Assembly (NCBI GenBank): GCA_038046545.1
Contig: JBBSVZ010000005.1
Span: 1-57,776 of the forward strand
From: Nanobdellota archaeon
GTDB taxonomy: Archaea > Nanobdellota > Nanobdellia > Woesearchaeales > JBBSVZ01
Reading direction: 5' to 3'
DNA: 57,776 bases
In this document: positions 14,382 to 26,460 of the stretch, piece after piece
Layout: each line of letters starts with the position of its first letter
Numbering within the stretch: position 1 is the stretch's first letter
Program-made: the position numbers and the translations under genes
The notes under the pieces: generated by a model
Database searches by the model: none
What the model was told of the DNA's origin: nothing
Seen by the model: only the letters and a program-made list of their open reading frames with translations

Positions 14382-17300
14382 TCAGGGTGGTATTGGGCAT
14401 TCAGGTCCGTTGAAGGCTTTTGCTCCGCCAAGCATTGGCGGGAAAGCTGTTGGTCCTGCTATCAATGAGGTCAAGTCCTGAATATTTATATCAGTCGTGA
14501 AAAGTCCTTTTCCGGGAACCAAATCCCAGCGTTTATTGTCTGGTGACTCATTCAGGTTGGTGTTCATCCTTCGTATGGGCGCAAGAAAGCTTGTCACGTC
14601 GGCAATTGTGATCCTGTTAGTGCTATTAGGTATACTTCCATTCACGAAATCAGCTGGCCATCCGTCAATACCACAGGGATCAAAAGGATTTGTGCCTATT
14701 AATACTTCATTAGTGTTATTAAAGCCGTCATTATCCCAGTCAGGGTCGCATACATCTCCAATATTGTCGCCAATGAAAAAGGGGGCAGCAGTGTCATTTA
14801 ATTGGATTTCCTTATCAGTATTTTTTTGGTTTGGATTTGAAATGAGAGGGCAATTATCTAGTCTGTTCGTCACAGTATCATTATCATTATCGCCGTCTAA
14901 TAGTGGCAGGTAATCTCCGCCTAGGGTGATGCTGCCATTTGAATTGTAAGGTAGCATGGTATTGCCTATGCCATCACCGTTTGTGTCAGTTCCGTTATAG
15001 TCGCTCCAGAAATTGCCGCCCAGGAAAAGCCCCCCATAAATGTTAAGGCCCGCTGTCTTTGTAATGTTCCAGTTATTCCTCCCTTGATTCTGAGCGTTTA
15101 TTATGTTTTGGAAGAAGTTGTTGTAGACCAGGTTCGTGTTTGAAAAGTTGTTGATAAATATCCCGATCTGGTTGTTCGATACGTTATTGTCTTTTATTGT
15201 GTTGGTGGTTGAGTTGAAAATTACAATACCGACTTCATTGTTTGCAATTGTATTGCTTAGGACATTATTCCCTGAGCCTAACTCAATTGAAATTCCGGAA
15301 ATGCCGCCGCTCACGTTGTTGTAAGAGATTTTGATACCGTTAGAATTATGCAATTCTATGCTTCCCGAGTTGGATGTAAGGTTGCTTGATGACGAGCTAT
15401 CTAGTATTATGTTTTTTGTTGTGCTGTTGACAACAGATATCCCGCTGGAAAGGGCGATTAGAATGCTATTGCTATTCGCAGACTTGGTGTCGACACCATC
15501 TATTTTTGAATTCGAAGAGCCTTGGAATGAAATGCCAGTTTCTACGTCCTCTATTTTCCCGCCATTCACCTGGTTGTTCGAGCCTGAAACAAAAAATCCA
15601 ATAGGAAGGCTATACACGTGATTGTTTGTGAAGGTGTTCGAGCTTGAGCTTACAGCAAACCCATAAAGGAAGCTGTCGTGTATTTCATTGCTTGTGAACT
15701 GATTGCCGGAGCCACCACTAATGTTGACTACGTAGACGCCATTTGTGGAGCTTAGATTGTTGTTGAAAATACTATTGCTTGAGCTGCTTGTAAGAAGCAG
15801 GCCATTCGTCATTATATTGTTCTTTATGGTCGTTGTCATAGCGCTTTCTAAAACGGCGCTTGCATTTTTGTTATTCAACAAGGCATTGCTTGAAATTTCG
15901 TTGTTCGGGGAGTTTACAAGGAAAATGCCGAACCTGAGGTTGTCGTCTATTCTATTGTCGTGTATCCTACAGTTATTGATGATGCCAGGGGCTATTCTGG
16001 CTGCGTCTGGTGAAGACGTTTCTGTAATATATATGCCATCTATGTTCTCCAGGATCTTGTTGTTAGCAGCCTCGCAGAAAGGTGAATCCTCGAAGCTGAT
16101 CCCAGTATTATAGTTTTTGACTTCACAATCTTTTATCTTGATGTTTGTTTGGCCGATCACTTCAATGCCTGTGTTTGAATTGTTACCAACAAGCACTGTA
16201 TTATCGCACTTCACTTTCACATCCGAGGCTGCGATGTTTATGCCGTTTGGAAGTGTGTAAGTTCCTGGGCAGAGAACTGTGTTCGAAACAATGTCCATGT
16301 TGTCGGTAGGAGTTGTGCACGTGTGGCATGCGAAGCTGCATCCAGAAGAGCCCTGGTCGTTCCAGCCTGATGTTATGTTGCAGGAATTATAATCTCCTGT
16401 GTAGCTGCCAGTGCTGCTGATATCTAAACCGTTGTCACATACTTGGTTGTTTATGACCTGCCCTCCGGAACCTGTAATGACGATACCATTTCCTGTATTT
16501 AATTGTACTTCGTTATTTCTTATTTTGTTGTTATTTCCTTTAATTTCTATACCCTTGAAATAATCTTCAACAACGCAATTTTGCACAGTTGTATTAGTAA
16601 TAGTTGAACCTATGTTTATTCCAACTCCTGTACCATTTCCTGTAATTGAATTTCCAAGACAATCAAAAATAATATTACTTTTACTAATATCTGCATTGGA
16701 AAATAAGCTGGTGGTTAAACAAATTACATTGCCTGGCTGAGCCAAGCTAATCGCCGAATTTAATTGCCCGTCAACCATGCCGGATACTTTGAAAGTGCAC
16801 CAGCAAGCGTCGCCTACACCGTCATTATCGTAATCCGCTTGATCCGGGTTTTTAACAGTTTTGCAATTGTCTTCCTCGTCGTTTATACCATCGCAATCTT
16901 GATCGCCAACACAAATGTAGTCTATAGGATCTGAAACCTCAATTATTGTATGGTCAAATACAGGGCCATTGCCAGCAACATCATCTATTTCTAGCTTAAC
17001 TCTATACCTTCCTAAAGTGGGGTAGCCTCTTTCAAGCTTTGGATGGCAAGTAATTAAATCAACGTCATCATCTGGAATTCCATTTCCGTCTGTATCCCTG
17101 GTTACATCAATATCCCACTTACAACTTGCTATGCTAAAGTTATCAAAAGAACCAACAGCAGAGAACTGTATAGGGTCTCTTATGTGAACTCTTTGCGGCG
17201 GACCTGCAAAAGCGCTAGGCGGCTCTAAATCATACTCATCTTCGCTTACTACATTAACATTAAAGGTATCGGTACCTATGTTGCCGGCAGCATCTATTAC

Positions 17301-20300
17301 AGTAAGTCTCACTTGATGAGCGCCAATGGACGAATAGCCGGTAAATGGTGCAAATTCACCAGTAAGAATAGGTGCGCTTGGATTATTGATGTCTGTTTCC
17401 CAGGTGTAACTGATTATTTTATCATTATCATAGGACAAGCTTGCATCAAAGGAAAGTGTCTTTTCAACTACCGCGTATTTATTTGAATCCGTTATATGGT
17501 CTGGGAAAGCCTTAGCAAAAGGCGGAATATTATCCCCGACAAATAATTGTTTTGATGCTGCGTTATTTGAATAATTTTTTTCCTGGAATTCGTTAAACGG
17601 AGAGATCATAACAATTATGGTGTGGTTGCCAAATGATTTTGCTTTCCAAACTATCCTTGCAGTAGCAGTGCCTAAAGAACTTACATTTATTGTGCCAAAA
17701 CCAATGGTCTCATTGCCGTCCTTAAAATCTATCTCTGAGTTATTTGCAATACCCTTCCTAATGTTGTGTATTACCGCAGATATTGTGACATTATCGCCAA
17801 CGTTTGGTGTTGCATTTGAAAATGTGATATCTGATGCATTCAACGTGAGGTCAGGAAGCCTTTCTACAAAGAATGCATCGAAGGCTGTTCTATTTACTAT
17901 CGCACCACTCTTATTGACCAGGCTGGTATTTACAGACGCCACTAAATTAACCATATGCAAGTCCTCGAATTCCGGGCTTGTAGTGAACTTGTTTGCGTAT
18001 ATGCCATCGTTTAATTGGTTATCACCATGCAGGCCATCATCAAACAGTTTTATAGCCGCTAAAACAGGAGTCGCGTTTTCAAGGCTAAAGTTATCAAACC
18101 TGCTTATGTAAGCTGTTACATTCGCTTTAGCAAGCGGAGCGCCTTTGTATGCGACATATCCAAATATGCTTACATTATCCCCTGGCTCATAGGAGTATGT
18201 CGAGTTTCCAATTGCTAAACCGACAAACAAACTTGTTTTGAAGGCAACTGAAGCATCATATTTTACACCCTGCGGACATGTTACATTCGTGCCGGTAACA
18301 ACCAAGCTCCAATTTCCAGACTGAGTGGAGTTGATGGCAAACATTATTTCGCCATCTGTTTTAAAAAATACGATAGTTGAGTTATCAGAGTTTGCGGAAG
18401 TAATTACAGTCTGGCTTGGAGTAATTAAAGATAGTTCAATATTATTTGCACAGTTCTCATAATCGTCAATTGTTCCGTTGTAAAACGCGTCAATTGACCT
18501 GTATGTAAGCTTCACCCTGACATCTTCAGCCAACTCATCTAACTTGAAGCTGTGCGATTTTACTTGGCTATTATTAAGTATACCGCTAAAGGGTCCTATC
18601 AACTCATAAGCTGTTCCATTGGCAGTTTCATTAATATCCATTTGACTTTCATTCGCAATAATACCGCCCATAAAGCCCGGCGAGTGTGTAAGGAAATCTT
18701 CAGTTATGTTGATTACATCATCGTCTTTGGTCAAAAACCAGTGGAAGGTGCTTAATCCAGTAACTTTAACATTGCTTACATCTGGGCCATCATATATCTT
18801 CCCACTAACTGTATTTGTCCACAAATCACCGAACCATACGAATAAAACACCAAACGTTTTTCCAAGAACAGGGTCAGTCAATTTTAGTGTAGTCAGGGTT
18901 AATGGCAGGGAAAGATCTCCAATAGCTGGGCCAACGCCATAGATAGACAAATATTGAATATTATTATTTAGAGTATCTGGTCCCGGGGGCTGCCATTTGT
19001 ATAAAGCCCATTCAGGCGCAGGGTCAATGCCGTTTAAGTTCAAAGTTTCAATAAATGTCGAATGAGGCTCCATCTGCCCGATGGCCTCGCCCAGTATGAT
19101 TTCCACAATGGAATTAGCTATATCAGCTATAATCGGAGGCAACCCGCCTGAAGAAACGAGAGCAGTAATTGCTGTTTTAATTACTATTGGCCCATACTTG
19201 GCCATGTCAGCTCCATGCAAGGGAGTGCCAACCAAGATAATCTTTCTTACATCAAAATTAGAACCATATGTTCCATAATGCTGAGCAGCTAATCCACCCA
19301 TTCCAGAACCAACAATATCGATTTTGTCGACTCCAGTCTGCGCCCTGATTTCTGTTACTTTCTCACCTACTACTTTTGCTGATGATTGTATCGGTTGATT
19401 GGCAAATTTTACTCCTAGTAAAGAGCTGCTTAGTGTTAAACTAGACTTGAAGTATGTAAAGTCAACGGGATGAGTGCTATTTGGGCCTGTAACCTTTGGA
19501 GGTTCAATACCGTTTATGCACGCAATAACATTTATAGTATTGTTTGGAAAGTCATTCAATTTCGCTAAATATTTGTTTGTCAAAATATCATACTGAATTG
19601 CGTAACCGGCTGTTTCATTGCTGCCTTTACCCGCATTTACAGCTGAACCAACTCTTTTAAATTCTCTAAGATTTGCCCACTCCCAGACCTTTCTTGTAAC
19701 TCCTTCAAGCTTTGTACTGTCGTTATATTTTTTTACAAAGATTTTAGCGGCAAGTGGTTTATTTGTAGCCTTTGCCATGGGGCAATTTTGATTTTGAATA
19801 CCTGTCTCGCCACATAAGTCATTTCCTTTACAGTCGCACTTATCTTGACTGACCTGAGTAGGTAAGGATTCCGTTCTAAAACAATTATCTCCACAATAGG
19901 TTTTATAACCACTATAATGTGTTAAATGGATATACCCCCGGCCTTTATACCCTGCCCCTCCTTCATAAGCTCCATTAATGTAATCTGAATCGGGCAATGC
20001 ACTACAAATATGGGTTAAATTTTTTCCACTTATATTAAAATTGGGTAAGGTACCATCCTTTAATTTTGGTTTATTTTTATATACCTGATGTTTTTGAATA
20101 TATACAAAGTATGTTGCAGATTTATCTGGTTTGTGTTTCGTTTCACTTGAGCAACAGTTTCCCGCTGCCGAAGTTCCTCCAAAACAACAACTTCCGTTCG
20201 TCATCTGGCAACCTCCCCCGGCACCAAAATCTCCAATTTCTTCAAATTCATTAAAATTCGTTCCAGTTTCCAATGTTAATGTGCCTATAATAGCCGCTAA

Positions 20301-23300
20301 CAGTTCTGAAGTAAGATTAATTTTAGATACGTTAAATTCCTTTTCAATATTAGAAAGGGCTTCCCAAAGATTATCATAGTTGCTTATCGGAGCCCCTACA
20401 TTATTAGACTTAAACCACTTTTTGAAATTACTTTTTACTACATCACAACTATCTTCAATTTCTAAATCAGTACACGGACTATGACAATATGCCAAAGTGC
20501 CAGTATTAATTACCAAAGTTCCAGTACCCGTTCCTCCTATAACTGGATTAGGTGAGTCTGCGGTTTTTTCTGGAAGATCTGCATGAAATATTTCAATCTC
20601 ATTCGGAAAGTCTGTAACAACTGGATCCCCAGGTGGATCAACTTTAACATTAATTTCTGATATGTAAAGAGCTCCATCTAATTTTACCTTGTCGTCCTTA
20701 AAAGATGGCTTTATATCTTTCACTACTAAGGCAAATCCAGTTTCAGCTGTTATGCTCTTGAATTGCTTTGTGAATGTCTTTTGAAAGACTGTGTATTGCC
20801 CAGGAACCTTTATTACCCCGGTTTCAACCAGTCCCTGGATAACAGGTTTTACTTTTTGAGGTAGAGGAACTGGAATAGAAACTTCTGCAATTTTAGTCTC
20901 AGGGTTCAGGGAAAATTCGATTTCAAACTTATAATTGTCTAACAATTGGTTGAAAACTTTTTCTGGAAATTCGTCTGGATTATCATAATATAATTTTATT
21001 TCACTTAGAACAGAATCTACATCGTCATTTTCTGTAAAATTGATAATCCTGTCTAAAATCTTAACAGTACTATTTATGGTATTAACCAAACCTGTTTGAT
21101 TCTTAGCCCTGAAAGATATCAGTTGCAAAGTGGATTTCAAATCATACGCAGATTCTCTCAGTTTGCTCTTGGCTTCAATTATGTTCTGGGTTGTAGCCGC
21201 TCCGCCAGGACTGCCTCCTGAGCTGCCAGCTATAGCTTTTAAATCTTTTACATCTTGGACAAACTCCCTTCCCTGCTGCAAAACTAAATAAATGAATGCG
21301 ACTGTTTCAATTCTTGGATCTTTCAAAGGAATTATATAATTTATTTCGATATCTACCGGCTTTCTAAGATCGACGTCAAAAACCTGAAAGCCATCGCTTT
21401 CCAAGTCTTCTTTCATTTTTTTCATTTCTTTAGGACTTCTTAGGTAGTCGTGAACCAGCAGCACAGGCCTTCTGATGACGTCTATGTCCTTTGAGACATT
21501 TTTGGACCAAGTTCCTGCATTGTCTTTAACTCGGAATGTTACTTTTTGTATTCCTAAAGCAGCTGCGGTAAATGTGTGAGCAACTACACTGCCATTTATA
21601 ATCTGGTCTTCGATAATCCATTCTTGATTAGTAACGAAACCGTCATCGTCAAAGCCAAATCCATTAAACTCTACGGGTTCTCCAACAATTGCAGATAATT
21701 TTCCTTTATTATCTGTAAACCCTTTGATATATCTAATGAAAGCTGTAGGAAGTTTATTGACAACAAGCGGTTTTCTTGAGTCTGCATTTTGCGGCGACCA
21801 TAATCCAATAACATCCTTGACAAAATAATCAATTATGTGAGGATTTGCCGGAGGCAGCAAGTCTGTTGATATCGAGCTGGTAGAGCTTATATTAACAACT
21901 CCTCCTATTTTGCCAACCTTATGCGATTGCCACCAATGCTCTCTTATATCAAGTCCTGGAATTCCATAACCATTAAAATCAATTGTTTCTTTAACCAACG
22001 CAACAGGGAAGGGATTGATAGTATCGATAAAAGCGCTTGGAGGCGTGGTATTCATGGAAACATACAGAGCATCTGACTTAGGCCCTACCGAAGGATCGAA
22101 GCCATCCATCCAACCGAAAAACTGTCCAGCCTCTACAACACCATCGCCATTATAATCCCTGTATATCGCTGGTTGTGAGCAGTTCTGGCAACTAACAGTA
22201 AATTCTACAGAGAAGGCCGTGTCATTGTTGGGGGCGCTAACATCAAAATGAGTGGCGTTCTTTGTGCCTTCGCTCCTGTTCAACTTATTCGCATCAGATT
22301 CTTGAGCCTGCCATGGAATTGTGAAAAAAGTGATGGCGAAGAGCTCCTTGGTATTGTAATCCATTGATAATTTTACGTTTGGATTATCTGTTTCAAGCTG
22401 GTATTTAATTAATTCAATTGTATTATTGATAGTGTGGGGAAGCCCTGTGCCAAACCCTAAATTGTAATCGGTAACAAGTTTGTTCGGCTCTCCATAGCTA
22501 ACTGTACCGTTACAAAAATCGGTTTGAGTTTTAGACCAGTCTCTGTTTTTAAGGCCACTTGCATCCAACTTGTACCCTAAGGTCACCCACCCTTTAAGCC
22601 AGGCACCTCTATTGCAATATTTAGTAACTGGAACTGTAAACAAACTACTGCTGGGAAAAGATGGAGTACCGATTGAATATTCCCCCCTTGTTTCCTTGAA
22701 TGTGTTTTCAGATGATCCAGAATAAGTATACCCTCCAGGAGCTGATATTCTTATATAACCATCCTCCTCAGAGCATTTTTTTAGAAGCGTGCCTTTTTTC
22801 TCTAAAGTCTGCGTCTCGGTTACAGTAATGTAATCAGTAAAAGTTTCTCTTCCTACTGCTTTTATTTTACATGTAAAATCTTGGGGAACACTTTCAGAGC
22901 CTGATGCAAATATTTCATAATCAAATGGATGGTCCAATATTTCCGCATTTTTTTTTCCTGCATGCAATTCTATTTCTGGTTCATAAACTATCCAGGCGTA
23001 AAACTCAGCACTTTTGTCAGTAATAAATATGTCGCTTCCCGGATTTCCATAGTACGTATTCCCTCCAAAAGTTATGGACATTTCATTAATTTCAACTATA
23101 TCTGCGTTGCATTCATTTGTAAGATTTACAATAAACTTATCGAAATCTGTGTCATTGACATTCCCGGGTCCTGTTTTTTGGCATTGACCGCCTGACGATG
23201 TGACAGCGGTGACGTTCCAGATAAAAGAGTCGTTTGTCGGCTGCGGGCATGGCTCATCTATTGCAACTGTAATCGATGTGATGTTATCAATAGGAATTGT

Positions 23301-23849
23301 GTTAGCTGATGAATTAAAAATGTCAGTTTCTGTCAAGAAAACCGAGGTAATGCCTGAACTTAGCGCTTTTAGCGTGTATCTTCCTAAAACGCCCTTGGAA
23401 CCTCCGGGCTCTGCTGTGCCTGTGTCAACAACACTAACAAAGTGAGAACCATCGGTATCAATTACTTGGTCACTAAAATCAGCAAGGGTGCTTCCAGGTT
23501 GAGAAGATAAGAGCAATCCATGATCATGTCCATTAACCGAAAGCAAAATATTATTAAAAAAAATTTTATAGGTGAATCCTGCCAGATCTTTATCTAATGG
23601 GATAGAGTCTACGAAGGTATCTATATCGAATGTGGAGTTAGTGGCTACAGAAATGCAATAATCTATGGTTCCTAAAGATGTTGCATCATTTCCTGCCGGA
23701 TCTGCATCAATGCCTACAGTAGTTCCTGGATCGGCATTAACAAGACCTGAAAAAAGTATTGCCAGACCTACAAAAATGGAAAGAATAATTGCAGATTTTC
23801 CTATACGTCTTTGCAACCTCGTAATCCCCCGCCCACGAACAAATACCAC
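14382..23849 (-). CDS. Giant (3155 aa) multidomain secreted/surface protein, GTG start
   Basis: A single uninterrupted ORF with an N-terminal signal anchor. Recognisable segments include CARDB, PKD and thrombospondin type 3 repeats, a long parallel beta-helix (PbH1-type) repeat region, a GH19-like segment and a degenerate lipase-like segment (see findings). Confidence 0.9.
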   Translation of the reverse strand: MVFVRGRGITRLQRRIGKSAIILSIFVGLAILFSGLVNADPGTTVGIDADPAGNDATSLGTIDYCISVATNSTFDIDTFVDSIPLDKDLAGFTYKIFFNNILLSVNGHDHGLLLSSQPGSTLADFSDQVIDTDGSHFVSVVDTGTAEPGGSKGVLGRYTLKALSSGITSVFLTETDIFNSSANTIPIDNITSITVAIDEPCPQPTNDSFIWNVTAVTSSGGQCQKTGPGNVNDTDFDKFIVNLTNECNADIVEINEMSITFGGNTYYGNPGSDIFITDKSAEFYAWIVYEPEIELHAGKKNAEILDHPFDYEIFASGSESVPQDFTCKIKAVGRETFTDYITVTETQTLEKKGTLLKKCSEEDGYIRISAPGGYTYSGSSENTFKETRGEYSIGTPSFPSSSLFTVPVTKYCNRGAWLKGWVTLGYKLDASGLKNRDWSKTQTDFCNGTVSYGEPNKLVTDYNLGFGTGLPHTINNTIELIKYQLETDNPNVKLSMDYNTKELFAITFFTIPWQAQESDANKLNRSEGTKNATHFDVSAPNNDTAFSVEFTVSCQNCSQPAIYRDYNGDGVVEAGQFFGWMDGFDPSVGPKSDALYVSMNTTPPSAFIDTINPFPVALVKETIDFNGYGIPGLDIREHWWQSHKVGKIGGVVNISSTSSISTDLLPPANPHIIDYFVKDVIGLWSPQNADSRKPLVVNKLPTAFIRYIKGFTDNKGKLSAIVGEPVEFNGFGFDDDGFVTNQEWIIEDQIINGSVVAHTFTAAALGIQKVTFRVKDNAGTWSKNVSKDIDVIRRPVLLVHDYLRSPKEMKKMKEDLESDGFQVFDVDLRKPVDIEINYIIPLKDPRIETVAFIYLVLQQGREFVQDVKDLKAIAGSSGGSPGGAATTQNIIEAKSKLRESAYDLKSTLQLISFRAKNQTGLVNTINSTVKILDRIINFTENDDVDSVLSEIKLYYDNPDEFPEKVFNQLLDNYKFEIEFSLNPETKIAEVSIPVPLPQKVKPVIQGLVETGVIKVPGQYTVFQKTFTKQFKSITAETGFALVVKDIKPSFKDDKVKLDGALYISEINVKVDPPGDPVVTDFPNEIEIFHADLPEKTADSPNPVIGGTGTGTLVINTGTLAYCHSPCTDLEIEDSCDVVKSNFKKWFKSNNVGAPISNYDNLWEALSNIEKEFNVSKINLTSELLAAIIGTLTLETGTNFNEFEEIGDFGAGGGCQMTNGSCCFGGTSAAGNCCSSETKHKPDKSATYFVYIQKHQVYKNKPKLKDGTLPNFNISGKNLTHICSALPDSDYINGAYEGGAGYKGRGYIHLTHYSGYKTYCGDNCFRTESLPTQVSQDKCDCKGNDLCGETGIQNQNCPMAKATNKPLAAKIFVKKYNDSTKLEGVTRKVWEWANLREFKRVGSAVNAGKGSNETAGYAIQYDILTNKYLAKLNDFPNNTINVIACINGIEPPKVTGPNSTHPVDFTYFKSSLTLSSSLLGVKFANQPIQSSAKVVGEKVTEIRAQTGVDKIDIVGSGMGGLAAQHYGTYGSNFDVRKIILVGTPLHGADMAKYGPIVIKTAITALVSSGGLPPIIADIANSIVEIILGEAIGQMEPHSTFIETLNLNGIDPAPEWALYKWQPPGPDTLNNNIQYLSIYGVGPAIGDLSLPLTLTTLKLTDPVLGKTFGVLFVWFGDLWTNTVSGKIYDGPDVSNVKVTGLSTFHWFLTKDDDVINITEDFLTHSPGFMGGIIANESQMDINETANGTAYELIGPFSGILNNSQVKSHSFKLDELAEDVRVKLTYRSIDAFYNGTIDDYENCANNIELSLITPSQTVITSANSDNSTIVFFKTDGEIMFAINSTQSGNWSLVVTGTNVTCPQGVKYDASVAFKTSLFVGLAIGNSTYSYEPGDNVSIFGYVAYKGAPLAKANVTAYISRFDNFSLENATPVLAAIKLFDDGLHGDNQLNDGIYANKFTTSPEFEDLHMVNLVASVNTSLVNKSGAIVNRTAFDAFFVERLPDLTLNASDITFSNATPNVGDNVTISAVIHNIRKGIANNSEIDFKDGNETIGFGTINVSSLGTATARIVWKAKSFGNHTIIVMISPFNEFQEKNYSNNAASKQLFVGDNIPPFAKAFPDHITDSNKYAVVEKTLSFDASLSYDNDKIISYTWETDINNPSAPILTGEFAPFTGYSSIGAHQVRLTVIDAAGNIGTDTFNVNVVSEDEYDLEPPSAFAGPPQRVHIRDPIQFSAVGSFDNFSIASCKWDIDVTRDTDGNGIPDDDVDLITCHPKLERGYPTLGRYRVKLEIDDVAGNGPVFDHTIIEVSDPIDYICVGDQDCDGINDEEDNCKTVKNPDQADYDNDGVGDACWCTFKVSGMVDGQLNSAISLAQPGNVICLTTSLFSNADISKSNIIFDCLGNSITGNGTGVGINIGSTITNTTVQNCVVEDYFKGIEIKGNNNKIRNNEVQLNTGNGIVITGSGGQVINNQVCDNGLDISSTGSYTGDYNSCNITSGWNDQGSSGCSFACHTCTTPTDNMDIVSNTVLCPGTYTLPNGINIAASDVKVKCDNTVLVGNNSNTGIEVIGQTNIKIKDCEVKNYNTGISFEDSPFCEAANNKILENIDGIYITETSSPDAARIAPGIINNCRIHDNRIDDNLRFGIFLVNSPNNEISSNALLNNKNASAVLESAMTTTIKNNIMTNGLLLTSSSSNSIFNNNLSSTNGVYVVNISGGSGNQFTSNEIHDSFLYGFAVSSSSNTFTNNHVYSLPIGFFVSGSNNQVNGGKIEDVETGISFQGSSNSKIDGVDTKSANSNSILIALSSGISVVNSTTKNIILDSSSSSNLTSNSGSIELHNSNGIKISYNNVSGGISGISIELGSGNNVLSNTIANNEVGIVIFNSTTNTIKDNNVSNNQIGIFINNFSNTNLVYNNFFQNIINAQNQGRNNWNITKTAGLNIYGGLFLGGNFWSDYNGTDTNGDGIGNTMLPYNSNGSITLGGDYLPLLDGDNDNDTVTNRLDNCPLISNPNQKNTDKEIQLNDTAAPFFIGDNIGDVCDPDWDNDGFNNTNEVLIGTNPFDPCGIDGWPADFVNGSIPNSTNRITIADVTSFLAPIRRMNTNLNESPDNKRWDLVPGKGLFTTDINIQDLTSLIAGPTAFPPMLGGAKAFNGPECPIPP

Positions 23850-24030: not shown

Positions 24031-26460
24031 GTGACCGATTTGCCTATTATGGCAAAATGGTCAAGGAAAAAAAAGACAATTTACGCTCTCCTCTTCTTGA
24101 CAGCAGTCATTATTTTGGTGTTTTTTGGTGCTCAACTGGGCTTGTACTTAAACTTCCTCGTCGGGAATGACATCCTAATCAGGCTTTCGGCTAGCAGAGA
24201 ATACATTTCAATTATGAATGGGGAAAAAACAAATGTGACTTTCAAAATTGACACGCTCAACAATGTGTTTTGCGAGGCCAAGTGCATGCTTGAGTTCGAA
24301 GACTTAACCAGGAACTCTTCAGCCAAACAAAACATTTCATTAAGATCTGGCAGCAAAATCCAACGAACTTTTGAAATTATTGCCCCGTTAACAGGCACCG
24401 GGAGCGAAGTCTATCGGTTCAGCGTATCATGCTCGAATGAAAAAAAGGTTTTTTGCCCAGCAGATGACAGCAGGACTTCAAGAAAAGTTCTTGTGGTAGT
24501 TGAGCACGATTTGACCCCCGTTGAGCGGCTATTGCAAAAAGACTTGAAGGAAAAAATCTTGGGATTCCAGGAAACTCTTGCAAACCAGTCATCCGCTGAG
24601 GGAGCAATAAAATCTGCTTACGACAAAATTGAACAATCAAAAGAAAGCAGCGATGCTGAGCGGAACTGGTTCTTCCTGGTAACTTCTCTTAAAGAAAACG
24701 AAAATGCATTGGCTGCTCTAATCCAGCTCTGGAAACAGGGAGATTACTATGCTGCCTCAAACAAGGCAGAACTGGTGATGAGCTCATTCTCAGCAACAAA
24801 TGTAAAGCTTGCAACAGCAAAGCAATCTGTTGAGAGTCTTGCCAACCGGCATAATGAGATAATAAGGAAGTTTAACGAGGCAAAAGAAAAAGTATCTAAG
24901 CTAACAGCAGTAAAAACTACTGATTCCCTAATTATGAATGAAGCTGAGAATGCAATACGCCATTTTAATGAATCAACAAATTCAGCAAATCAGGAGATTA
25001 AGCTGGAAGCGCGCGAAAACTTAGCGGAAACGGCTTTGACTAACACACTCTTATCATCAAGCAAGATAAACTACTCTTTGAGAATCGAAGCAGTCAAAAA
25101 GGAAGTTAAAACTGACCTAAAATTTGAGCTTGTCTGCAATGTTTCGGGAAATTGTCAGACTCATCCCTCGCCTTACAACAGATCACATCAGACTGAAGTT
25201 GACATGAATTTAACCTGCGAGCGCCTTAATGTTTTGAACTCAATAATCAAACAAATTACAGCTAATTACACTAATATAACTCTTAATGAGAGTTCTAAAC
25301 TTGTTGCAGATAAAGAACTGGCAACAATAGAATATGCGCTGAAAGAGAGATATGCCTTGCAAATAGACCCTGATGGCGTAAACGGGCCAGAACTCTTAGA
25401 AATGCTTGGGAGTAAAAACAATCTAACAAATATTTCCAGTTTGGTTAACAAAACCTTGTTGCTGGCTGAACTCTCAAAAATACCTTTGGATAGCTGCGCA
25501 ACTTTACCAGCCAAACAAATTGCCTTAGTTGACTTTTCTGCTGCTGAAATTATAATCGCGCCACAAACTCCCCAACAAATTTTTCAGCCACTAATCGATC
25601 CCAAACCGCAATGTTGCTTGTTTGGTTCATGTACTGCCTGCTGCGAAGGGGAATCCTGCCGAAATAGCCCTTCAAAATACCCGATAATCTTTCTCCACGG
25701 GCACTTGGTGAATAACCAGCTTTCAGTAGACTACAGCCTCGAGGCATTCAACTATTTTCAACTGGCTCTTGAGAAGGAAGGCTGGCTCGATGCTGGTGCG
25801 ATATCGCTTTATACTTCCGGAGAAGTTCCTTACGGAGCATGGGGAAGATTTCCAAATCCGCTCACCATAAAAGGCAGTTATTATTATGACGTATTCCTCG
25901 ACCAGGGAAATTATGTATACCAGCCGACCAAAAGTGAAAATATAGACACCTATTCAATCCGGCTGAAAGAACTTATAGATAAGGTGCAGTTTAGGACAGG
26001 CAGCCCAAAAGTAATCCTTGCAGGCCACAGCATGGGCGGTCTTGTTGCGAGAAGGTACTTGCAGATATTCGGAAATGAAAAAGTGGACAGGCTTATCGTT
26101 ATTGGCACCCCCAATAAAGGCATAGAAGGCAATGTCGCGGCGTTCTGCCCGGTCATTGGAGCTAAACGCGAGTGCGAGGACATGAGCGAAGACAGCATTT
26201 TCCTAAAAAAACTTAATTCTGGAGAACCTTCCAAAATACCCCTATTCAATATAATCGGCACAGGCTGCAATATGAACGGCGAACAGGGGGACGGGATAGT
26301 CCTTGAGAGAAGCGCTCAGCTTGATGGCGCATTCAATTTTGTTTTCAATGGAACTTGCAGCAGCCAATATGATAATCTGCACAACCACATGCTTTTCCCG
26401 GAAGAATACCCTGAAGTTTACGAGTTTTTTAAGAAAGCCTTGACGGCTAATTCGACATAG
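24031..26460 (+). CDS. Membrane-anchored coiled-coil protein with a Cys-rich linker and a C-terminal PGAP1/lipase-like alpha/beta-hydrolase domain; likely start is ATG 24049
   Basis: An N-terminal TM is followed by a long helical Lys/Glu/Ala-rich region and CCLFGSCTACCEGESC. Hydrolase motifs are IIFLHGH, AGHSMGGLVARRY and VIGTPNKG. The TATA GCATTAAATATTC fits the ATG at 24049. Confidence 0.75.
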   Translation: MTDLPIMAKWSRKKKTIYALLFLTAVIILVFFGAQLGLYLNFLVGNDILIRLSASREYISIMNGEKTNVTFKIDTLNNVFCEAKCMLEFEDLTRNSSAKQNISLRSGSKIQRTFEIIAPLTGTGSEVYRFSVSCSNEKKVFCPADDSRTSRKVLVVVEHDLTPVERLLQKDLKEKILGFQETLANQSSAEGAIKSAYDKIEQSKESSDAERNWFFLVTSLKENENALAALIQLWKQGDYYAASNKAELVMSSFSATNVKLATAKQSVESLANRHNEIIRKFNEAKEKVSKLTAVKTTDSLIMNEAENAIRHFNESTNSANQEIKLEARENLAETALTNTLLSSSKINYSLRIEAVKKEVKTDLKFELVCNVSGNCQTHPSPYNRSHQTEVDMNLTCERLNVLNSIIKQITANYTNITLNESSKLVADKELATIEYALKERYALQIDPDGVNGPELLEMLGSKNNLTNISSLVNKTLLLAELSKIPLDSCATLPAKQIALVDFSAAEIIIAPQTPQQIFQPLIDPKPQCCLFGSCTACCEGESCRNSPSKYPIIFLHGHLVNNQLSVDYSLEAFNYFQLALEKEGWLDAGAISLYTSGEVPYGAWGRFPNPLTIKGSYYYDVFLDQGNYVYQPTKSENIDTYSIRLKELIDKVQFRTGSPKVILAGHSMGGLVARRYLQIFGNEKVDRLIVIGTPNKGIEGNVAAFCPVIGAKRECEDMSEDSIFLKKLNSGEPSKIPLFNIIGTGCNMNGEQGDGIVLERSAQLDGAFNFVFNGTCSSQYDNLHNHMLFPEEYPEVYEFFKKALTANST

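What the first reader, a model, noticed from the sequence alone, without database searches (positions are those of the whole stretch)
14382..23849. Giant surface protein combines adhesion modules with a GH19-like lytic segment and a lipase-like fold whose nucleophile serine is replaced
Read in protein order (coordinates descend, because the gene is on the minus strand), the segments are as follows.
- Signal anchor at about 23730-23849.
- A cohesin-like beta-sandwich candidate at about 23300-23720 (tentative).
- An alpha/beta-hydrolase first strand, RPVLLVHDY, at about 21371-21475.
- About 700 aa later, the matching elbow IDIVGSGMGGLAAQHY at 19293-19310. The two paralogues in this window have GHSMGG and AHSFGG there, so the nucleophile Ser is Gly in the giant protein.
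- Between those two pieces, a GH19 (chitinase/lysozyme)-like segment: LLAAIIGTLTLETGTNFNEFEE at 20226-20285 and GGAGYKGRGYIHLTHYSGYKTY at 19885-19955. These resemble the GH19 catalytic Glu region and the GRG-IQLT-NY signature. A Cys-rich insert (GSCCFGGTSAAGNCC) interrupts it.
- CARDB at about 17560-17880.
- Two PKD domains at about 16940-17470.
- Thrombospondin type 3 Ca-binding repeats at about 16800-16920 and 14690-14910.
- About 600 aa of PbH1 parallel beta-helix repeats at about 14930-16790.
- A C-terminal dockerin-like tail (tentative).
A glycan-cleaving module embedded in a dead lipase scaffold on an adhesin-type giant protein would suit cell-cell attachment or attack. That functional reading is inference.
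Basis: partly seen in the sequence, partly recalled or inferred. Interest (0 to 1): 0.7.

Follow-up and report, generated by a model that had tools for sequence, protein, structure and literature searches.

The report
Swappable lytic warhead in archaeal giant protein
A 3,155-residue secreted protein of a tiny (DPANN) archaeon carries a distant relative of GH19 lysozyme/chitinase enzymes inserted into a catalytically dead lipase fold. In related giant proteins the same slot holds other cell-envelope-degrading enzymes, so it looks like an exchangeable "warhead" on a conserved adhesin scaffold.

Summary
ORF 14382-23849(-) is one intact gene, deposited as MEK6967075.1 from a Nanoarchaeota MAG.

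- **Ordinary modules.** Pfam confirms CARDB, PKD, TSP3 and a NosD-type beta-helix.
- **Split lipase fold.** aa 790-832 and aa 1478-1730 are one alpha/beta-hydrolase fold. With the insert removed, a profile of 11 giants aligns straight across the junction to solved lipases (E 1e-9).
- **Dead active site.** The nucleophile Ser is Gly in all 11 giants, and the oxyanion HG is HD in 10 of 11. The Asp and His positions are kept.
- **GH19-like domain.** aa 1145-1456 is a remote GH19 relative that Pfam misses. Its profile hits GH19 structures in 26 of 28 PDB matches (best E 2e-6). hhalign against phage GH19 endolysins gives 97.6% probability (E 4.5e-12). Both invariant glutamates align with the catalytic pair.
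- **New finding.** About 12-15 homologous giants from DPANN-labelled MAGs share the scaffold, but aa ~1086-1455 is a variable slot. It holds GH19-like, Amidase_3, GH25, NlpC/P60, subtilase, papain-like or PLC-like domains.
- **Head and tail.** The cohesin-like head is supported through homologues. The dockerin-like tail is not; it is an uncharacterised conserved domain.

An envelope-attacking function is inferred, not shown. I rate it a new variant of a known kind.

The parts
14382..23849 (-). Whole gene: giant secreted protein, 3155 aa from the GTG start (3144 aa from the TTG used in the NCBI record)
23733..23816 (-). Sec-type signal peptide (aa 12-39, QRRIGKSAIILSIFVGLAILFSGLVNA, then DPG)
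   Evidence: Read directly from the sequence. No signal-peptide predictor was run.
23235..23735 (-). Variable head, cohesin-like domain (aa 39-205)
   Evidence: No Pfam or PDB hit on the giant itself. It is homologous to P0177, P0178, P0189, P0193 and P0196 at E 1e-21 to 1e-38. P0189 and P0196 match Pfam Cohesin (E 8e-6, above Pfam's cutoff, and E 5e-5); P0178 does so weakly (E 1e-3). Not conserved among the homologous giants.
21480..23231 (-). Conserved scaffold A (aa 207-790), fold unknown, with a weak PKD-like stretch at aa 721-787
   Evidence: Covered by 11-14 of 15 homologous giants. PKD_4 E 0.0013.
21354..21482 (-). Pseudo-lipase piece 1 (aa 790-832): first strand RPVLLVHDY, helix A, strand QVFDVDL. 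The oxyanion-hole motif HG is changed to HD.
20595..21353 (-). Conserved part of the insertion, the 'arm' (aa 833-1085), fold unknown
   Evidence: Conserved in 13 giants. No family hit. The single-sequence AF2 model was uninformative.
19485..20594 (-). Variable cassette slot (aa ~1086-1455)
   Evidence: Only 1-2 of 15 giants align here. The others carry Amidase_3, S8+I9, NlpC/P60, GH25, C1 or VWA7_N/PLC-like domains at this position.
19482..20417 (-). GH19-like glycosidase domain (aa 1145-1456)
   Evidence: Profile against the PDB: 26 of 28 hits are GH19. hhalign against phage GH19 endolysins: 97.6% probability, E 4.5e-12. AF2 with the family alignment: core pLDDT above 85. Top Foldseek hits are GH19 but not significant.
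20268..20270 (-). Glu1194, predicted general acid (LETG)
   Evidence: Invariant in 27 family members. Aligned to the first invariant Glu of GH19 endolysins.
20238..20240 (-). Glu1204, predicted general base (FEEIG)
   Evidence: Invariant in 27 family members. Aligned to the second invariant Glu of GH19 endolysins.
19956..20219 (-). Cys-rich sub-insert inside the GH19-like domain (aa ~1211-1298), shared only with P0005
   Evidence: Gap in 25 of 27 aligned family members. pLDDT below 50 in the model.
19905..19949 (-). GH19-type signature YKGRGYIHLTHYSGY (aa 1301-1315). It carries Q->H and N->G changes relative to the family consensus YKGRGYIQITxKxNY.
18660..19418 (-). Pseudo-lipase piece 2 (aa 1478-1730): helix B, elbow, GTPLHG motif, retained Asp (GDL) and His (HWF)
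19293..19310 (-). Elbow GSGMGG (aa 1514-1519). Gly1516 sits at the nucleophile Ser position.
   Evidence: Aligned to GHSMGG and AHSFGG of the window paralogues and to GHSQGG of solved lipases. Gly at this position in all 11 giants.
17856..18659 (-). Conserved scaffold segment (aa 1731-1998), unassigned. Short 'choice-of-anchor X' match at aa 1933-1958 and a weak GBD_Hemicentin-like match.
17553..17855 (-). CARDB domain (aa 1999-2099)
   Evidence: Pfam E 3e-8
16941..17486 (-). PKD domain region (aa ~2122-2303)
Evidence: Pfam PKD_4 E 2.6e-14 with three matched stretches in the protein, best at aa 2127-2200.
16800..16922 (-). TSP3 Ca-binding repeats (aa ~2310-2350)
   Evidence: Sequence DQDCDGINDEEDNCKTVKNPDQADYDNDGVGDAC. 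Matches TSP3 repeats in homologues and in small TSP3 proteins.
14931..16790 (-). Right-handed parallel beta-helix (NosD/PbH1 type, aa ~2354-2973)
   Evidence: Pfam NosD E 3.6e-42 and Beta_helix E 8.5e-26
14676..14897 (-). TSP3 repeats (aa 2985-3058)
   Evidence: Pfam TSP_3 and TSP3_bac
14385..14699 (-). Variable tail: conserved uncharacterised C-terminal domain (aa 3051-3155, ending FPPMLGGAKAFNGPECPIPP). Not a detectable dockerin.
   Evidence: 60-67% identical to the C-termini of small TSP3 proteins. No Pfam or PDB match.
24031..26460 (+). Divergently transcribed neighbour, 809 aa, with an intact lipase-like domain (GHSMGG). It is a paralogue of the giant's dead domain.
   Evidence: Pfam Abhydrolase_1, DUF915, LCAT and PGAP1. 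BLASTP E 3e-7.

Best explanation
**What it is.** The gene encodes a secreted multidomain protein of a DPANN archaeon (Nanoarchaeota-labelled MAG).

**Scaffold.** The scaffold is shared with about a dozen giant proteins from other DPANN-labelled MAGs. It comprises:
- an unknown beta-rich region;
- a lipase-type alpha/beta-hydrolase domain;
- CARDB, PKD and TSP3 modules and a long NosD-type beta-helix.

These provide reach and binding.

**Dead lipase domain.** The domain has lost its nucleophile (Ser to Gly) and its oxyanion-hole glycine (HG to HD). It is split after strand beta4 by an insertion of about 650 aa. That insertion has a conserved 'arm' followed by an exchangeable enzymatic cassette.

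**This cassette.** Here it is a divergent GH19-family glycosidase stabilised by disulfides. It keeps the acid and base glutamates and the GRG-x-I-x-(L/I)-T signature. It most likely cleaves beta-1,4 bonds in GlcNAc-containing glycans.

**Likely target.** My first choice is bacterial peptidoglycan, for two reasons. Sister giants carry peptidoglycan-specific enzymes (Amidase_3, GH25, NlpC/P60) in the same slot. The nearest solved relatives are phage endolysins.

**How it works.** The protein would bind another cell and locally degrade its envelope, for attachment, predation or scavenging.

**Shown:**
- the domain architecture;
- the homologies;
- conservation of the catalytic residues;
- loss of the lipase nucleophile;
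- the cassette variability.

**Inferred:**
- enzymatic activity and substrate;
- surface display;
- a purely structural role for the pseudo-lipase;
- the biological purpose.
For: **One split lipase fold.**
- The rejoined giant (aa 786-832 plus 1478-1730) matches Pfam Abhydrolase_1 from the first strand to the elbow at 18.4 bits. The unspliced tile scored 12.5 bits.
- A profile of 11 rejoined giants hits 54 PDB chains, all alpha/beta-hydrolases and mostly lipases.
  - 7v3k scores E 1.3e-9.
  - 5h6b scores E 1.4e-8, with an alignment running straight across the junction.
- Relatives with little or no insert (P0116, P0051, P0068, P0069, P0088) have the two pieces 41-60 aa apart.
  - The four that were scanned (P0116, P0051, P0068, P0069) have significant alpha/beta-hydrolase Pfam hits.

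**Dead active site.**
- Gly aligns to the nucleophile Ser of the two window paralogues and of solved lipases.
- [GA][SN]G[MK]GG is found in all 11 giants. HDY is found in 10 of 11; the eleventh has PDY.

**GH19-like cassette.**
- An exhaustive HMMER search found about 45 free-standing relatives.
- The family profile hits GH19 structures in 26 of 28 PDB matches, with E down to 1.8e-6.
- hhalign against 8 phage GH19 endolysins gives 97.6% probability and E 4.5e-12.
  - E1194 and E1204 fall on the two invariant glutamates.
- The AF2 model has pTM 0.73. Its best Foldseek matches are GH19 enzymes, though individually not significant.

**Variable slot.**
- Homologous giants align at aa 207-1085 and 1455-3002 but not in between.
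- Pfam on the intervening segments gives the following:
  - Amidase_3: E 3.5e-27 and 5e-18
  - Peptidase_S8 with I9 propeptide: E 1e-46 and 2e-40
  - NlpC/P60: E 5e-11
  - GH25: E 7e-32
  - Peptidase_C1: E 3e-23 and 1e-25
  - VWA7_N/PLC-like: E 1e-8
- Precomputed Pfam hits list GH25 among the domains of P0012, independently of my scan.
- The scaffold closest to the window (80% identity in the pseudo-lipase) carries Amidase_3, not the GH19-like domain.

**Cellular DPANN origin.**
- The records are labelled as DPANN MAGs.
- P0012 lies next to an archaeal ribosomal protein cluster.

**Literature.**
- Peptidoglycan hydrolases are reported as prominent in Nanoarchaeota (PMC12352652).
- Large lytic transglycosylases in Woesearchaeota have been read as predation tools (PMC9723730).
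Against: - No activity or substrate data exist.
- Pfam's GH19 model does not detect the domain. Foldseek E-values are 1.2-6. The N-terminal (Glu) half alone finds nothing in the PDB. The Glu assignment therefore rests on one profile-profile alignment plus invariance.
- This copy deviates from its own family at two substrate-site positions of the GH19 signature (IQxT to IHLT; NY to GY). It also carries a poorly modelled Cys-rich insert of about 85 aa. It could have altered specificity or reduced activity.
- GH19 enzymes also include chitinases. The target could be chitin or another glycan rather than murein.
- The fold of the whole pseudo-lipase with its insert could not be modelled.
- No membrane anchor or known archaeal sorting signal is present apart from the N-terminal signal peptide. 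Cell-surface retention is therefore assumed.
- The conserved Asp and His, together with the invariant Asp in HDY, leave open a residual or altered activity of the lipase-like domain.
Confidence: 0.6

Rival explanations
1. **Nutrient scavenging rather than attack.** The protein is a secreted polymer-degrading and binding enzyme. It harvests GlcNAc-containing debris (chitin, murein fragments, glycoproteins) for an auxotrophic archaeon. The beta-helix, PKD and CARDB modules act as carbohydrate or particle binders. Cassette diversity reflects different food polymers.
For: - GH19 includes true chitinases, and these appear among the PDB hits (1dxj, 1wvu, 2baa).
- The other cassettes (proteases, amidases, glycosidases) are equally typical of extracellular depolymerases.
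- No membrane anchor was found.
- DPANN archaea are described as degraders of cellular compounds (PMC9723730, abstract).
Against: - The best-scoring solved relatives are phage endolysins, not chitinases.
- Amidase_3, NlpC/P60 and GH25 act on intact or fragmented murein, so they do not discriminate between the two readings.
- A 3,000-aa adhesin-like scaffold with a single catalytic domain is an unusual design for a bulk depolymerase.
- No sugar or peptide uptake or catabolic genes were seen next to the gene.
Confidence: 0.25
2. **The target is an archaeal host envelope.** The giant protein mediates episymbiotic attachment to an archaeal host. The cassette remodels the host's S-layer glycans or proteins to open a contact site, as proposed for giant proteins of other DPANN archaea.
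For: - Cultivated DPANN archaea are episymbionts of archaea and encode giant surface proteins thought to act on hosts (PMC10266531).
- The protease cassettes (S8, C1) and the PLC-like cassette could act on proteinaceous S-layers and membranes.
- One free-standing GH19-like relative and two short contigs are binned with Methanothrix or Methanosarcinales MAGs.
Against: - Four of the seven cassette types (Amidase_3, NlpC/P60, GH25, GH19-endolysin-like) belong to families best known as murein hydrolases. Most archaea lack murein.
- Pseudomurein has beta-1,3 linkages and is not a known GH19 substrate (general knowledge).
- The host of this MAG is unknown.
Confidence: 0.12
3. **The cassette in this copy is decayed.** The protein works only as an adhesin. 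The GH19-like module is then a binding or structural remnant, like the dead lipase.
For: - The window copy departs from the family consensus at two signature positions (Q to H, N to G). It also carries a large low-confidence Cys-rich insert.
- The same protein already contains one clear pseudoenzyme.
Against: - Both catalytic glutamates, the GRG motif, the Thr of the signature and the conserved cysteines are intact.
- The sub-insert is shared with P0005 at 38% identity over the domain, so it is maintained.
- One free-standing family member also has the HYSGY variant.
Confidence: 0.1

Closest known systems
GH19 glycoside hydrolases, especially phage GH19 endolysins (SPN1S endolysin 4ok7, PWe2 9ms7, 8p8e) and bacterial or plant GH19 chitinases (1wvu, 2baa)
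   Same: - Remote homology: profile E 2e-6 against the PDB, and hhalign 97.6% against phage endolysins.
- Two glutamates about 10 residues apart, in the same alignment columns as the invariant pair.
- A Y-[KR]-G-R-G-x-I-Q-[IL]-T...NY signature and the downstream INGG motif.
- An alpha-rich fold in the AF2 model.
   Different: - Not detected by Pfam PF00182.
- About 19% identity over the aligned columns.
- Several conserved cysteines (YCGxDC, CGCK, CP).
- This copy has an extra Cys-rich insert of about 85 aa and the Q-to-H and N-to-G changes.
- It is embedded inside another domain of a 3,155-aa protein rather than free-standing or joined to a wall-binding domain.
Secreted bacterial lipases and related alpha/beta-hydrolases (7v3k, 5h6b, Burkholderia glumae lipase 1qge/1tah; Pfam Lipase_2, PGAP1, DUF915, DUF7379, Palm_thioest)
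   Same: - Same order of elements: PVLLVHG strand, helix, strand, helix, nucleophile elbow, GTPxHG motif, then Asp and His.
- Significant profile matches.
   Different: - The nucleophile Ser is Gly, and HG is HD.
- An insertion of about 650 aa follows strand beta4.
- It is part of a giant multidomain protein.
- It is best described as a pseudoenzyme scaffold.
Polymorphic toxins (Rhs, CDI and similar) with exchangeable toxin domains
   Same: A conserved delivery or binding scaffold with a sharply bounded variable enzymatic module that is swapped between close relatives. The closest pair is 80% identical in the flank but carries unrelated cassettes.
   Different: - The variable module is internal, nested in a split domain, not C-terminal.
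- The payloads are extracellular envelope hydrolases, not intracellular nucleases or deaminases.
- No immunity gene was identified.
- The host is an archaeon.
Giant surface proteins of episymbionts and predators: nanohaloarchaeal 'SPEARE' proteins (PMC10266531) and Omnitrophota giant proteins or 'Archaeovorins' (bioRxiv 10.1101/2023.11.21.568195)
   Same: - Very large secreted proteins of ultrasmall or predatory microbes.
- They combine adhesion-type repeats (including dockerin and TSP3 in some) with domains proposed to degrade cell walls.
   Different: - No detectable homology was examined or claimed.
- This family is much smaller (2.5-4.8 kaa).
- It has one catalytic slot with alternative occupants and a pseudo-lipase platform.
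Peptidoglycan hydrolases of archaea, including Nanoarchaeota (PMC12352652), and the large lytic transglycosylases of Woesearchaeota (PMC9723730)
   Same: Murein-type hydrolase domains encoded by archaea that make no murein, interpreted as weapons against bacteria.
   Different: - Those surveys relied on known catalytic families: modular enzymes with a known catalytic domain plus a wall-binding domain, or GH23 genes from CAZy annotation.
- The GH19-like family here is invisible to Pfam.
- The nested-cassette architecture is not mentioned in the passages I read.

Membership tests
Glycoside hydrolase family 19 | Significant sequence similarity to GH19 catalytic domains (Pfam PF00182 / CAZy assignment) | tested here: inconclusive
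   Pfam gave no GH19 hit for the giant, for insert-spliced constructs or for 28 family members. A family profile hits GH19 structures in 26 of 28 PDB matches, with E 1.8e-6 to 1e-3 for about 10 of them. hhalign against phage GH19 endolysins gives 97.6% probability and E 4.5e-12. It is a remote homologue, outside the curated model.
Glycoside hydrolase family 19 | Two catalytic glutamates (general acid and general base) | tested here: met
   E1194 and E1204 are invariant in 27 sequences. They align to the two invariant Glu of 8 phage GH19 endolysins. That these are the catalytic pair in GH19 is established knowledge, not tested here.
Glycoside hydrolase family 19 | Signature G-R-G-x-I-Q-[LI]-[ST]-x(3)-N-Y with the water-positioning Ser/Thr | tested here: met
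   The family consensus is YKGRGYIQITxKxNY. The window copy is YKGRGYIHLTHYSGY. G-R-G, Ile, Thr and the final Tyr are kept; Gln is changed to His and Asn to Gly.
Glycoside hydrolase family 19 | Lysozyme-like alpha-rich bilobal fold | tested here: inconclusive
   AF2 with the family alignment gave pTM 0.73 and core pLDDT above 85. The best Foldseek matches in the PDB and BFVD are GH19 enzymes, but with E 1.2-6 and TM 0.42-0.55 normalised to the target for the PDB hits.
Glycoside hydrolase family 19 | Inverting hydrolysis of beta-1,4 GlcNAc/MurNAc linkages | not testable with these tools
   Needs an enzyme assay.
Alpha/beta-hydrolase fold, lipase-like (Abhydrolase_1 / Lipase_2 / PGAP1-like) | Collinear core elements of the fold: strand beta3 with the HG motif, helix A, beta4, helix B, beta5 elbow, then the Asp and His loops | tested here: met
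   The rejoined profile aligns continuously to solved lipases (E 1.3e-9 and 1.4e-8). MAFFT alignment with contiguous relatives is collinear through the Asp and His positions. The Pfam hit on the single rejoined sequence is below the cutoff (18.4 against 25.8 bits). The 3D assembly was not modelled.
Alpha/beta-hydrolase fold, lipase-like (Abhydrolase_1 / Lipase_2 / PGAP1-like) | Nucleophile Ser in the G-x-S-x-G elbow (needed for an active serine hydrolase) | tested here: not met
   GSGMGG has Gly at the Ser position. The same holds in all 11 cassette-bearing giants.
Alpha/beta-hydrolase fold, lipase-like (Abhydrolase_1 / Lipase_2 / PGAP1-like) | Oxyanion-hole HG motif after the first strand | tested here: not met
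   HDY replaces HG[YIWL] in 10 of 11 giants, and PDY in P0011. Relatives with a Ser nucleophile keep HG.
Cohesin domain (head, aa 39-205) | Match to Pfam Cohesin PF00963 | tested here: inconclusive
   No hit on the giant itself at E<=10. Its homologues P0189 (E 8e-6, above the cutoff) and P0196 (E 5e-5, just below it) match Cohesin, and P0178 does so weakly (E 1e-3). They align to the head at E 1e-21 to 1e-33.
Dockerin type I (tail, aa 3051-3155) | Match to Pfam Dockerin_1, with duplicated Ca-binding loop-helix motifs | tested here: not met
   No Dockerin hit at E<=10. A 13-sequence tail profile finds no dockerin in the PDB. No D-x-[DN]-x-D-G loops are visible in the sequence.
Polymorphic toxin systems | Variable toxin module at the C-terminus, followed by a cognate immunity gene | tested here: not met
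   The variable catalytic module is internal (aa ~1086-1455). The downstream gene is a transketolase subunit. The system works like cassette swapping but does not belong to the described classes.

The most novel reading that the evidence does not exclude
The dead lipase fold is a purpose-built 'socket'. Because the cassette is nested in a loop of a split alpha/beta-hydrolase domain, the two halves of the giant protein would stay joined through that fold under three conditions:
- when the chain is cut, for example by autoprocessing of subtilase cassettes that carry their I9 propeptide;
- when the protein is encoded as two genes, as in locus L013. There the second gene starts with its own signal peptide exactly at the cassette edge;
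- while recombination swaps warheads to retarget different prey envelopes.

This would be a naturally split, self-reassembling pseudoenzyme serving as a universal adaptor for exchangeable extracellular lytic effectors in DPANN archaea.
Probability: 0.2. Interest if true: 0.85.

Novelty: new variant of a known kind. Interest (0 to 1): 0.68.

Why it matters
**How DPANN archaea act on other cells.** These archaea are abundant and mostly uncultured, and how they act on other cells is largely unknown. This family gives a concrete, testable molecular device. It is a conserved adhesin-like scaffold with a single slot that holds alternative envelope-degrading enzymes. Four of the seven enzyme types belong to families best known as bacterial murein hydrolases. 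That points to bacteria, not only archaea, as targets. It also suggests that target range can be read from the cassette.

**A new enzyme family.** The work reveals a secreted GH19-like family that Pfam does not detect. About 45 clusters at 50% identity were found. CAZyme and peptidoglycan-hydrolase surveys based on Pfam-type models would therefore likely undercount it.

**A protein-engineering template.** Enzymes nested in a dead alpha/beta-hydrolase fold are a clear natural example of domain insertion into a pseudoenzyme platform. This is a design of interest for protein engineering.

Tried and rejected
**Searches that found nothing**
- Pfam and NCBIfam on the whole protein and on eight tiles found nothing significant for aa 1-1930. 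The only sub-threshold signals were alpha/beta-hydrolase families at the elbow and Phage_lysozyme2 at E 0.05-0.12.
- Splicing out the Cys-rich insert by hand did not produce a Pfam GH19 hit.
- PHROGs, PDB phmmer and tblastn against 50,697 phage records with the cassette found nothing.
- The word-indexed homology search with aa 790-1720 found nothing. Only the exhaustive HMMER scan found relatives. The same index returned only 3 family members for the domain profile.
- A profile of the N-terminal (Glu) half of the domain alone gave no GH19 hit in the PDB.

**Structure attempts**
- Single-sequence AF2 of aa 790-1720 was useless (pLDDT 33).
- Foldseek with the domain model ranked GH19 enzymes first but without significance.

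**Claims tested and not supported**
- The dockerin reading of the tail is rejected at the sequence and profile level.
- A Phage_lysozyme2 or SLT-type assignment is rejected in favour of GH19, because every significant profile hit is GH19.

**Other checks**
- There is no second GH19-like copy in the window, and the 809-aa neighbour is not conserved next to the homologue in L011.
- The metagenome and GTDB scans added few new loci.

Full report
**1. The gene and its source**

The finding covers one uninterrupted ORF, 14382..23849 on the minus strand (3155 aa). An exact look-up shows it is deposited as MEK6967075.1, 'NosD domain-containing protein [Nanoarchaeota archaeon]', from a MAG. The deposited start is 11 residues further in. 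The window also holds a 122-nt tRNA that Rfam detects and ARAGORN does not, as expected for an intron-containing archaeal tRNA.

The N-terminus reads as a Sec signal peptide: QRRIGKSAIILSIFVGLAILFSGLVNA, then DPG. This is read from the sequence; no predictor was run.

**2. Checking the observation**

Pfam confirms the C-terminal half:
- CARDB at aa 1999-2099 (E 3e-8)
- PKD from aa 2122 (E 2.6e-14)
- TSP3 repeats
- NosD/Beta_helix (E 3.6e-42 and 8.5e-26)

Nothing in aa 1-1930 passes a Pfam or NCBIfam threshold. The only hints are a cluster of sub-threshold alpha/beta-hydrolase families at aa ~1490-1550 and a weak Phage_lysozyme2 match at aa ~1174-1238.

**3. The lipase-like fold is real, split and dead**

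*Elbow region.*
- It aligns to the two lipase-like proteins elsewhere in the window at BLASTP E 3e-7 and 1e-6. GSGMGG lies opposite GHSMGG and AHSFGG.
- It aligns to Burkholderia-type lipases in the PDB at E 4e-4, with GHSQGG opposite GSGMGG.

*Relatives from the exhaustive search.* An exhaustive HMMER search of 1.84 billion representatives found relatives of two kinds.
- Some have the 'first strand' and the 'elbow' only 41-60 residues apart (P0116, P0051, P0068, P0069, P0088). The four I scanned (P0116, P0051, P0068, P0069) have significant Abhydrolase_1, Palm_thioest, PGAP1, DUF7379 or Lipase_2 matches that begin at the first strand.
- Others are giant proteins that, like this one, have hundreds of residues in between.

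*Rejoining the two pieces.*
- When aa 786-832 and 1478-1730 are joined, Pfam Abhydrolase_1 matches from the first strand through the elbow. The score is 18.4 bits, still under the cutoff, against 12.5 bits unspliced.
- A profile of 11 rejoined giants hits 54 PDB chains, all alpha/beta-hydrolases and mostly lipases.
- The best hits are 7v3k (E 1.3e-9) and 5h6b (E 1.4e-8). The 5h6b alignment runs straight across the junction with no missing element.
- The insertion therefore sits in the loop after strand beta4.

*Active-site residues.*
- All 11 giants have Gly at the Ser position.
- Ten have HDY instead of the oxyanion-hole HG; the eleventh has PDY.
- All keep Asp (GDL) and His (HW) at the positions of the catalytic Asp and His of Ser-bearing relatives.
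- More distant relatives show Ser, Asp, Glu or Asn at the elbow.

I could not model the assembled fold.

**4. The GH19-like segment**

*What failed.* Pfam's GH19 model does not see this segment, even when the Cys-rich insert is removed by hand. The PDB, PHROGs and phage genomes give nothing with the single sequence.

*The family.*
- The exhaustive search found about 45 smaller proteins matching aa 1294-1447 at 35-44% identity.
- Iterating locally showed that these share a contiguous domain of about 210 aa. It corresponds to aa 1155-1223 plus 1289-1452 of the giant.
- The giant, together with P0005, carries an extra Cys-rich sub-insert of about 85 aa.
- None of 28 members has a Pfam hit on this domain.
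- Members begin with signal peptides.

*Conserved residues.* In the 27-sequence alignment the invariant residues include E1194, E1204 and the core of YKGRGYIQIT...Y.

*Links to GH19.*
- The family profile hits 28 PDB sequences, of which 26 are GH19 enzymes.
  - Phage endolysins: 9ms7 (E 1.8e-6), 8p8e (E 4.6e-6) and 4ok7 (E 8e-4).
  - Chitinases: 1dxj, 1wvu and 2baa.
- I built an alignment of eight phage GH19 endolysins from annotated records. Their two invariant glutamates are nine residues apart.
- hhalign between the two alignments gives 97.6% probability and E 4.5e-12 over 125 columns.
  - E1194 falls on the first Glu and E1204 on the second.
  - YKGRGYIHLT lies opposite YRGRGLIQLT.
  - VNAG lies opposite INGG.
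- AF2 with the family alignment gave pTM 0.73 with a confident core and a disordered sub-insert.
- The top Foldseek matches in the PDB and BFVD are GH19 enzymes but are not individually significant.

*Deviations in this copy.* It differs from its family at two signature positions (Q to H, N to G).

*Verdict.* This is a remote GH19 homologue with the catalytic pair intact. It lies outside the curated model.

**5. The new element: a variable slot**

*Where the giants align.* Fifteen homologous giants, 731-4799 aa and some truncated, align with this protein over aa 207-1085 and 1455-3002. Only two align in between. The head (aa 1-205) and tail (aa 3003-3155) are not covered by any of them.

*What the slot holds in the other giants.*

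| Cassette | Giants | Pfam E-value |
|---|---|---|
| GH19-like | window, P0005, P0007 | none (see section 4) |
| Amidase_3 | P0006, P0011 | 3.5e-27, 5e-18 |
| Subtilase with I9 propeptide | P0008, P0009 | 1e-46, 2e-40 |
| NlpC/P60 | P0010 (P0017 is related to it by BLAST, E 4e-7; Pfam finds no hit on P0017 itself) | 5e-11 |
| GH25 | P0012 | 7e-32 |
| Papain-like C1 | P0013, P0014 | 3e-23, 1e-25 |
| VWA7_N / phospholipase-C-like | P0015 | 1e-8 |

*Supporting points.*
- Catalytic motifs of the protease cassettes are visibly intact in the sequences.
- Precomputed Pfam data independently list GH25 among the domains of P0012. Its contig carries an archaeal ribosomal protein cluster.
- In the pseudo-lipase flank the window protein is 80% identical to P0006, which carries Amidase_3. 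It is only 58% and 47% identical to P0005 and P0007, which share its GH19-like cassette. Cassettes have therefore been exchanged.
- The sequence boundaries are sharp. Similarity with P0155 runs up to '...LYISEINVKVDPPG' (aa ~1074) and resumes near aa 1456.

*Labels.* Source labels are Nanoarchaeota, Aenigmarchaeota/Aenigmatarchaeota, Micrarchaeota and, for two short contigs, Methanosarcinales. These are the submitters' labels.

**6. Head and tail**

*Head.*
- aa 39-205 has no direct family hit.
- It is homologous to several small secreted proteins at E 1e-14 to 1e-38.
- Several of these match Pfam Cohesin; P0189 is above the cutoff.

*Tail.*
- aa 3051-3155 is 60-67% identical to the C-termini of many small TSP3-containing proteins. 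Some are labelled Dehalococcoidia or Poribacteria.
- It has 24 invariant positions, including two cysteines.
- Neither Pfam nor a PDB profile search links it to dockerins.

*Two related observations.*
- One 362-aa protein (P0163) combines a head-like and a tail-like domain.
- A true Dockerin_1 occurs in the N-terminal region of a homologous giant.

**7. Mechanism**

*Shown:*
- the architecture;
- the dead lipase;
- the GH19-type catalytic residues;
- the cassette polymorphism.

*Inferred:*
- The scaffold binds another cell or polymer.
- The pseudo-lipase is a structural socket.
- The cassette is the active part.

*Likely substrate.* Four of the seven cassette types belong to families best known as murein hydrolases, and the nearest solved relatives of this cassette are endolysins. 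Bacterial peptidoglycan is therefore the most likely substrate.

*Literature.* This fits reports that peptidoglycan hydrolases are prominent in Nanoarchaeota (PMC12352652). It also fits the reading of large lytic transglycosylases in Woesearchaeota as predation tools (PMC9723730).

*Rivals.* The alternatives are scavenging of chitin or murein debris, action on archaeal host envelopes, and a decayed cassette. They are weighed in the report sections.

**8. Comparison and novelty**

*What is already known.* Three ideas have precedents (PMC10266531; bioRxiv 10.1101/2023.11.21.568195; PMC12352652):
- giant surface proteins with lytic domains in ultrasmall or predatory microbes;
- archaeal peptidoglycan hydrolases;
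- cassette swapping in polymorphic toxins.

*What I did not find described.* My literature search was limited to six full-text queries. Within it I did not find:
- this scaffold family;
- the nesting of exchangeable envelope hydrolases inside a split, inactivated lipase fold;
- the GH19-like family itself.

I therefore rate it a new variant of a known kind.

*Most novel reading not excluded.* The split fold may act as an adaptor that keeps the two halves together after processing or when they are encoded separately. In locus L013 the giant is split into two overlapping ORFs exactly at the cassette's left edge. The second ORF starts with its own signal peptide. That rests on one contig, which appears in two databases.

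Noticed in passing
L013 3043-15208 (same contig as L024; MAG labelled Candidatus Micrarchaeota, JBBSVW010000032.1): A homologous giant is encoded as two ORFs overlapping by 14 nt. ORF1 (P0018) ends just past the conserved 'arm' and contains the first lipase strand (PVLLLPDY). ORF2 (P0015) begins with a signal-peptide-like sequence, then a VWA7_N/phospholipase-C-like cassette, then the GSGMGA elbow. The split lies at the left edge of the cassette slot. It is seen in one contig only, so a sequencing artefact is not excluded.
   Followed up: partly
window 14385-14699 (-), aa 3051-3155: The C-terminal tail is a strongly conserved domain of about 105 aa. It has 24 invariant positions and ends ...PPMLGGAKAFNGPxCPWPP. 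It is shared at 60-67% identity with small TSP3- and cohesin-containing proteins labelled Dehalococcoidia and Poribacteria. It has no Pfam or PDB relative. P0163 (362 aa) joins a cohesin-like head directly to this tail.
   Followed up: partly
P0020-P0065 (proteins), aligned as A1 and A2: A family of about 45 clusters of secreted proteins carries the GH19-like domain, either free-standing or fused to other modules (CarboxypepD_reg, WD40; one is a 3316-aa protein). No member has a Pfam hit on the domain. One (MCX6680767.1) is binned as Methanothrix sp.
   Followed up: partly
window 24031-26460 (+): A divergently transcribed 809-aa neighbour has an N-terminal hydrophobic segment, a long unassigned middle region and a lipase-like domain with an intact GHSMGG. 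It is an active-looking paralogue next to the dead copy. It is not conserved beside the homologue in L011.
   Followed up: partly
relatives P0019, P0033, P0039, P0045, P0053, P0116: The elbow residue varies among relatives of the pseudo-lipase. It is Ser in the four relatives with little or no insert other than P0116 (P0051, P0068, P0069, P0088). It is Asp (AKDMGG, GKDMGG, GFDMGG, GHDMGG), Glu (GFEMGG) or Asn (GHNQGG, in P0116) in the others listed. It is Gly in all giants with the large cassette.
   Followed up: no
window 3609-3730 (-): A 122-nt tRNA is detected by Rfam (54.5 bits) but missed by ARAGORN. This is consistent with an intron-containing archaeal tRNA.
   Followed up: no
L013 3043-5400 (+): The variable N-terminal region of a homologous giant carries NosD beta-helix repeats and a true Dockerin_1 domain (E 8e-11). 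The window protein has a cohesin-like head at the equivalent end.
   Followed up: no
window 27233-28813 (+): A 526-aa ORF two genes from the giant has a borderline CHB_HEX_C_1 (chitobiase/hexosaminidase C-terminal) match at E 2e-4, just under the cutoff.
   Followed up: no
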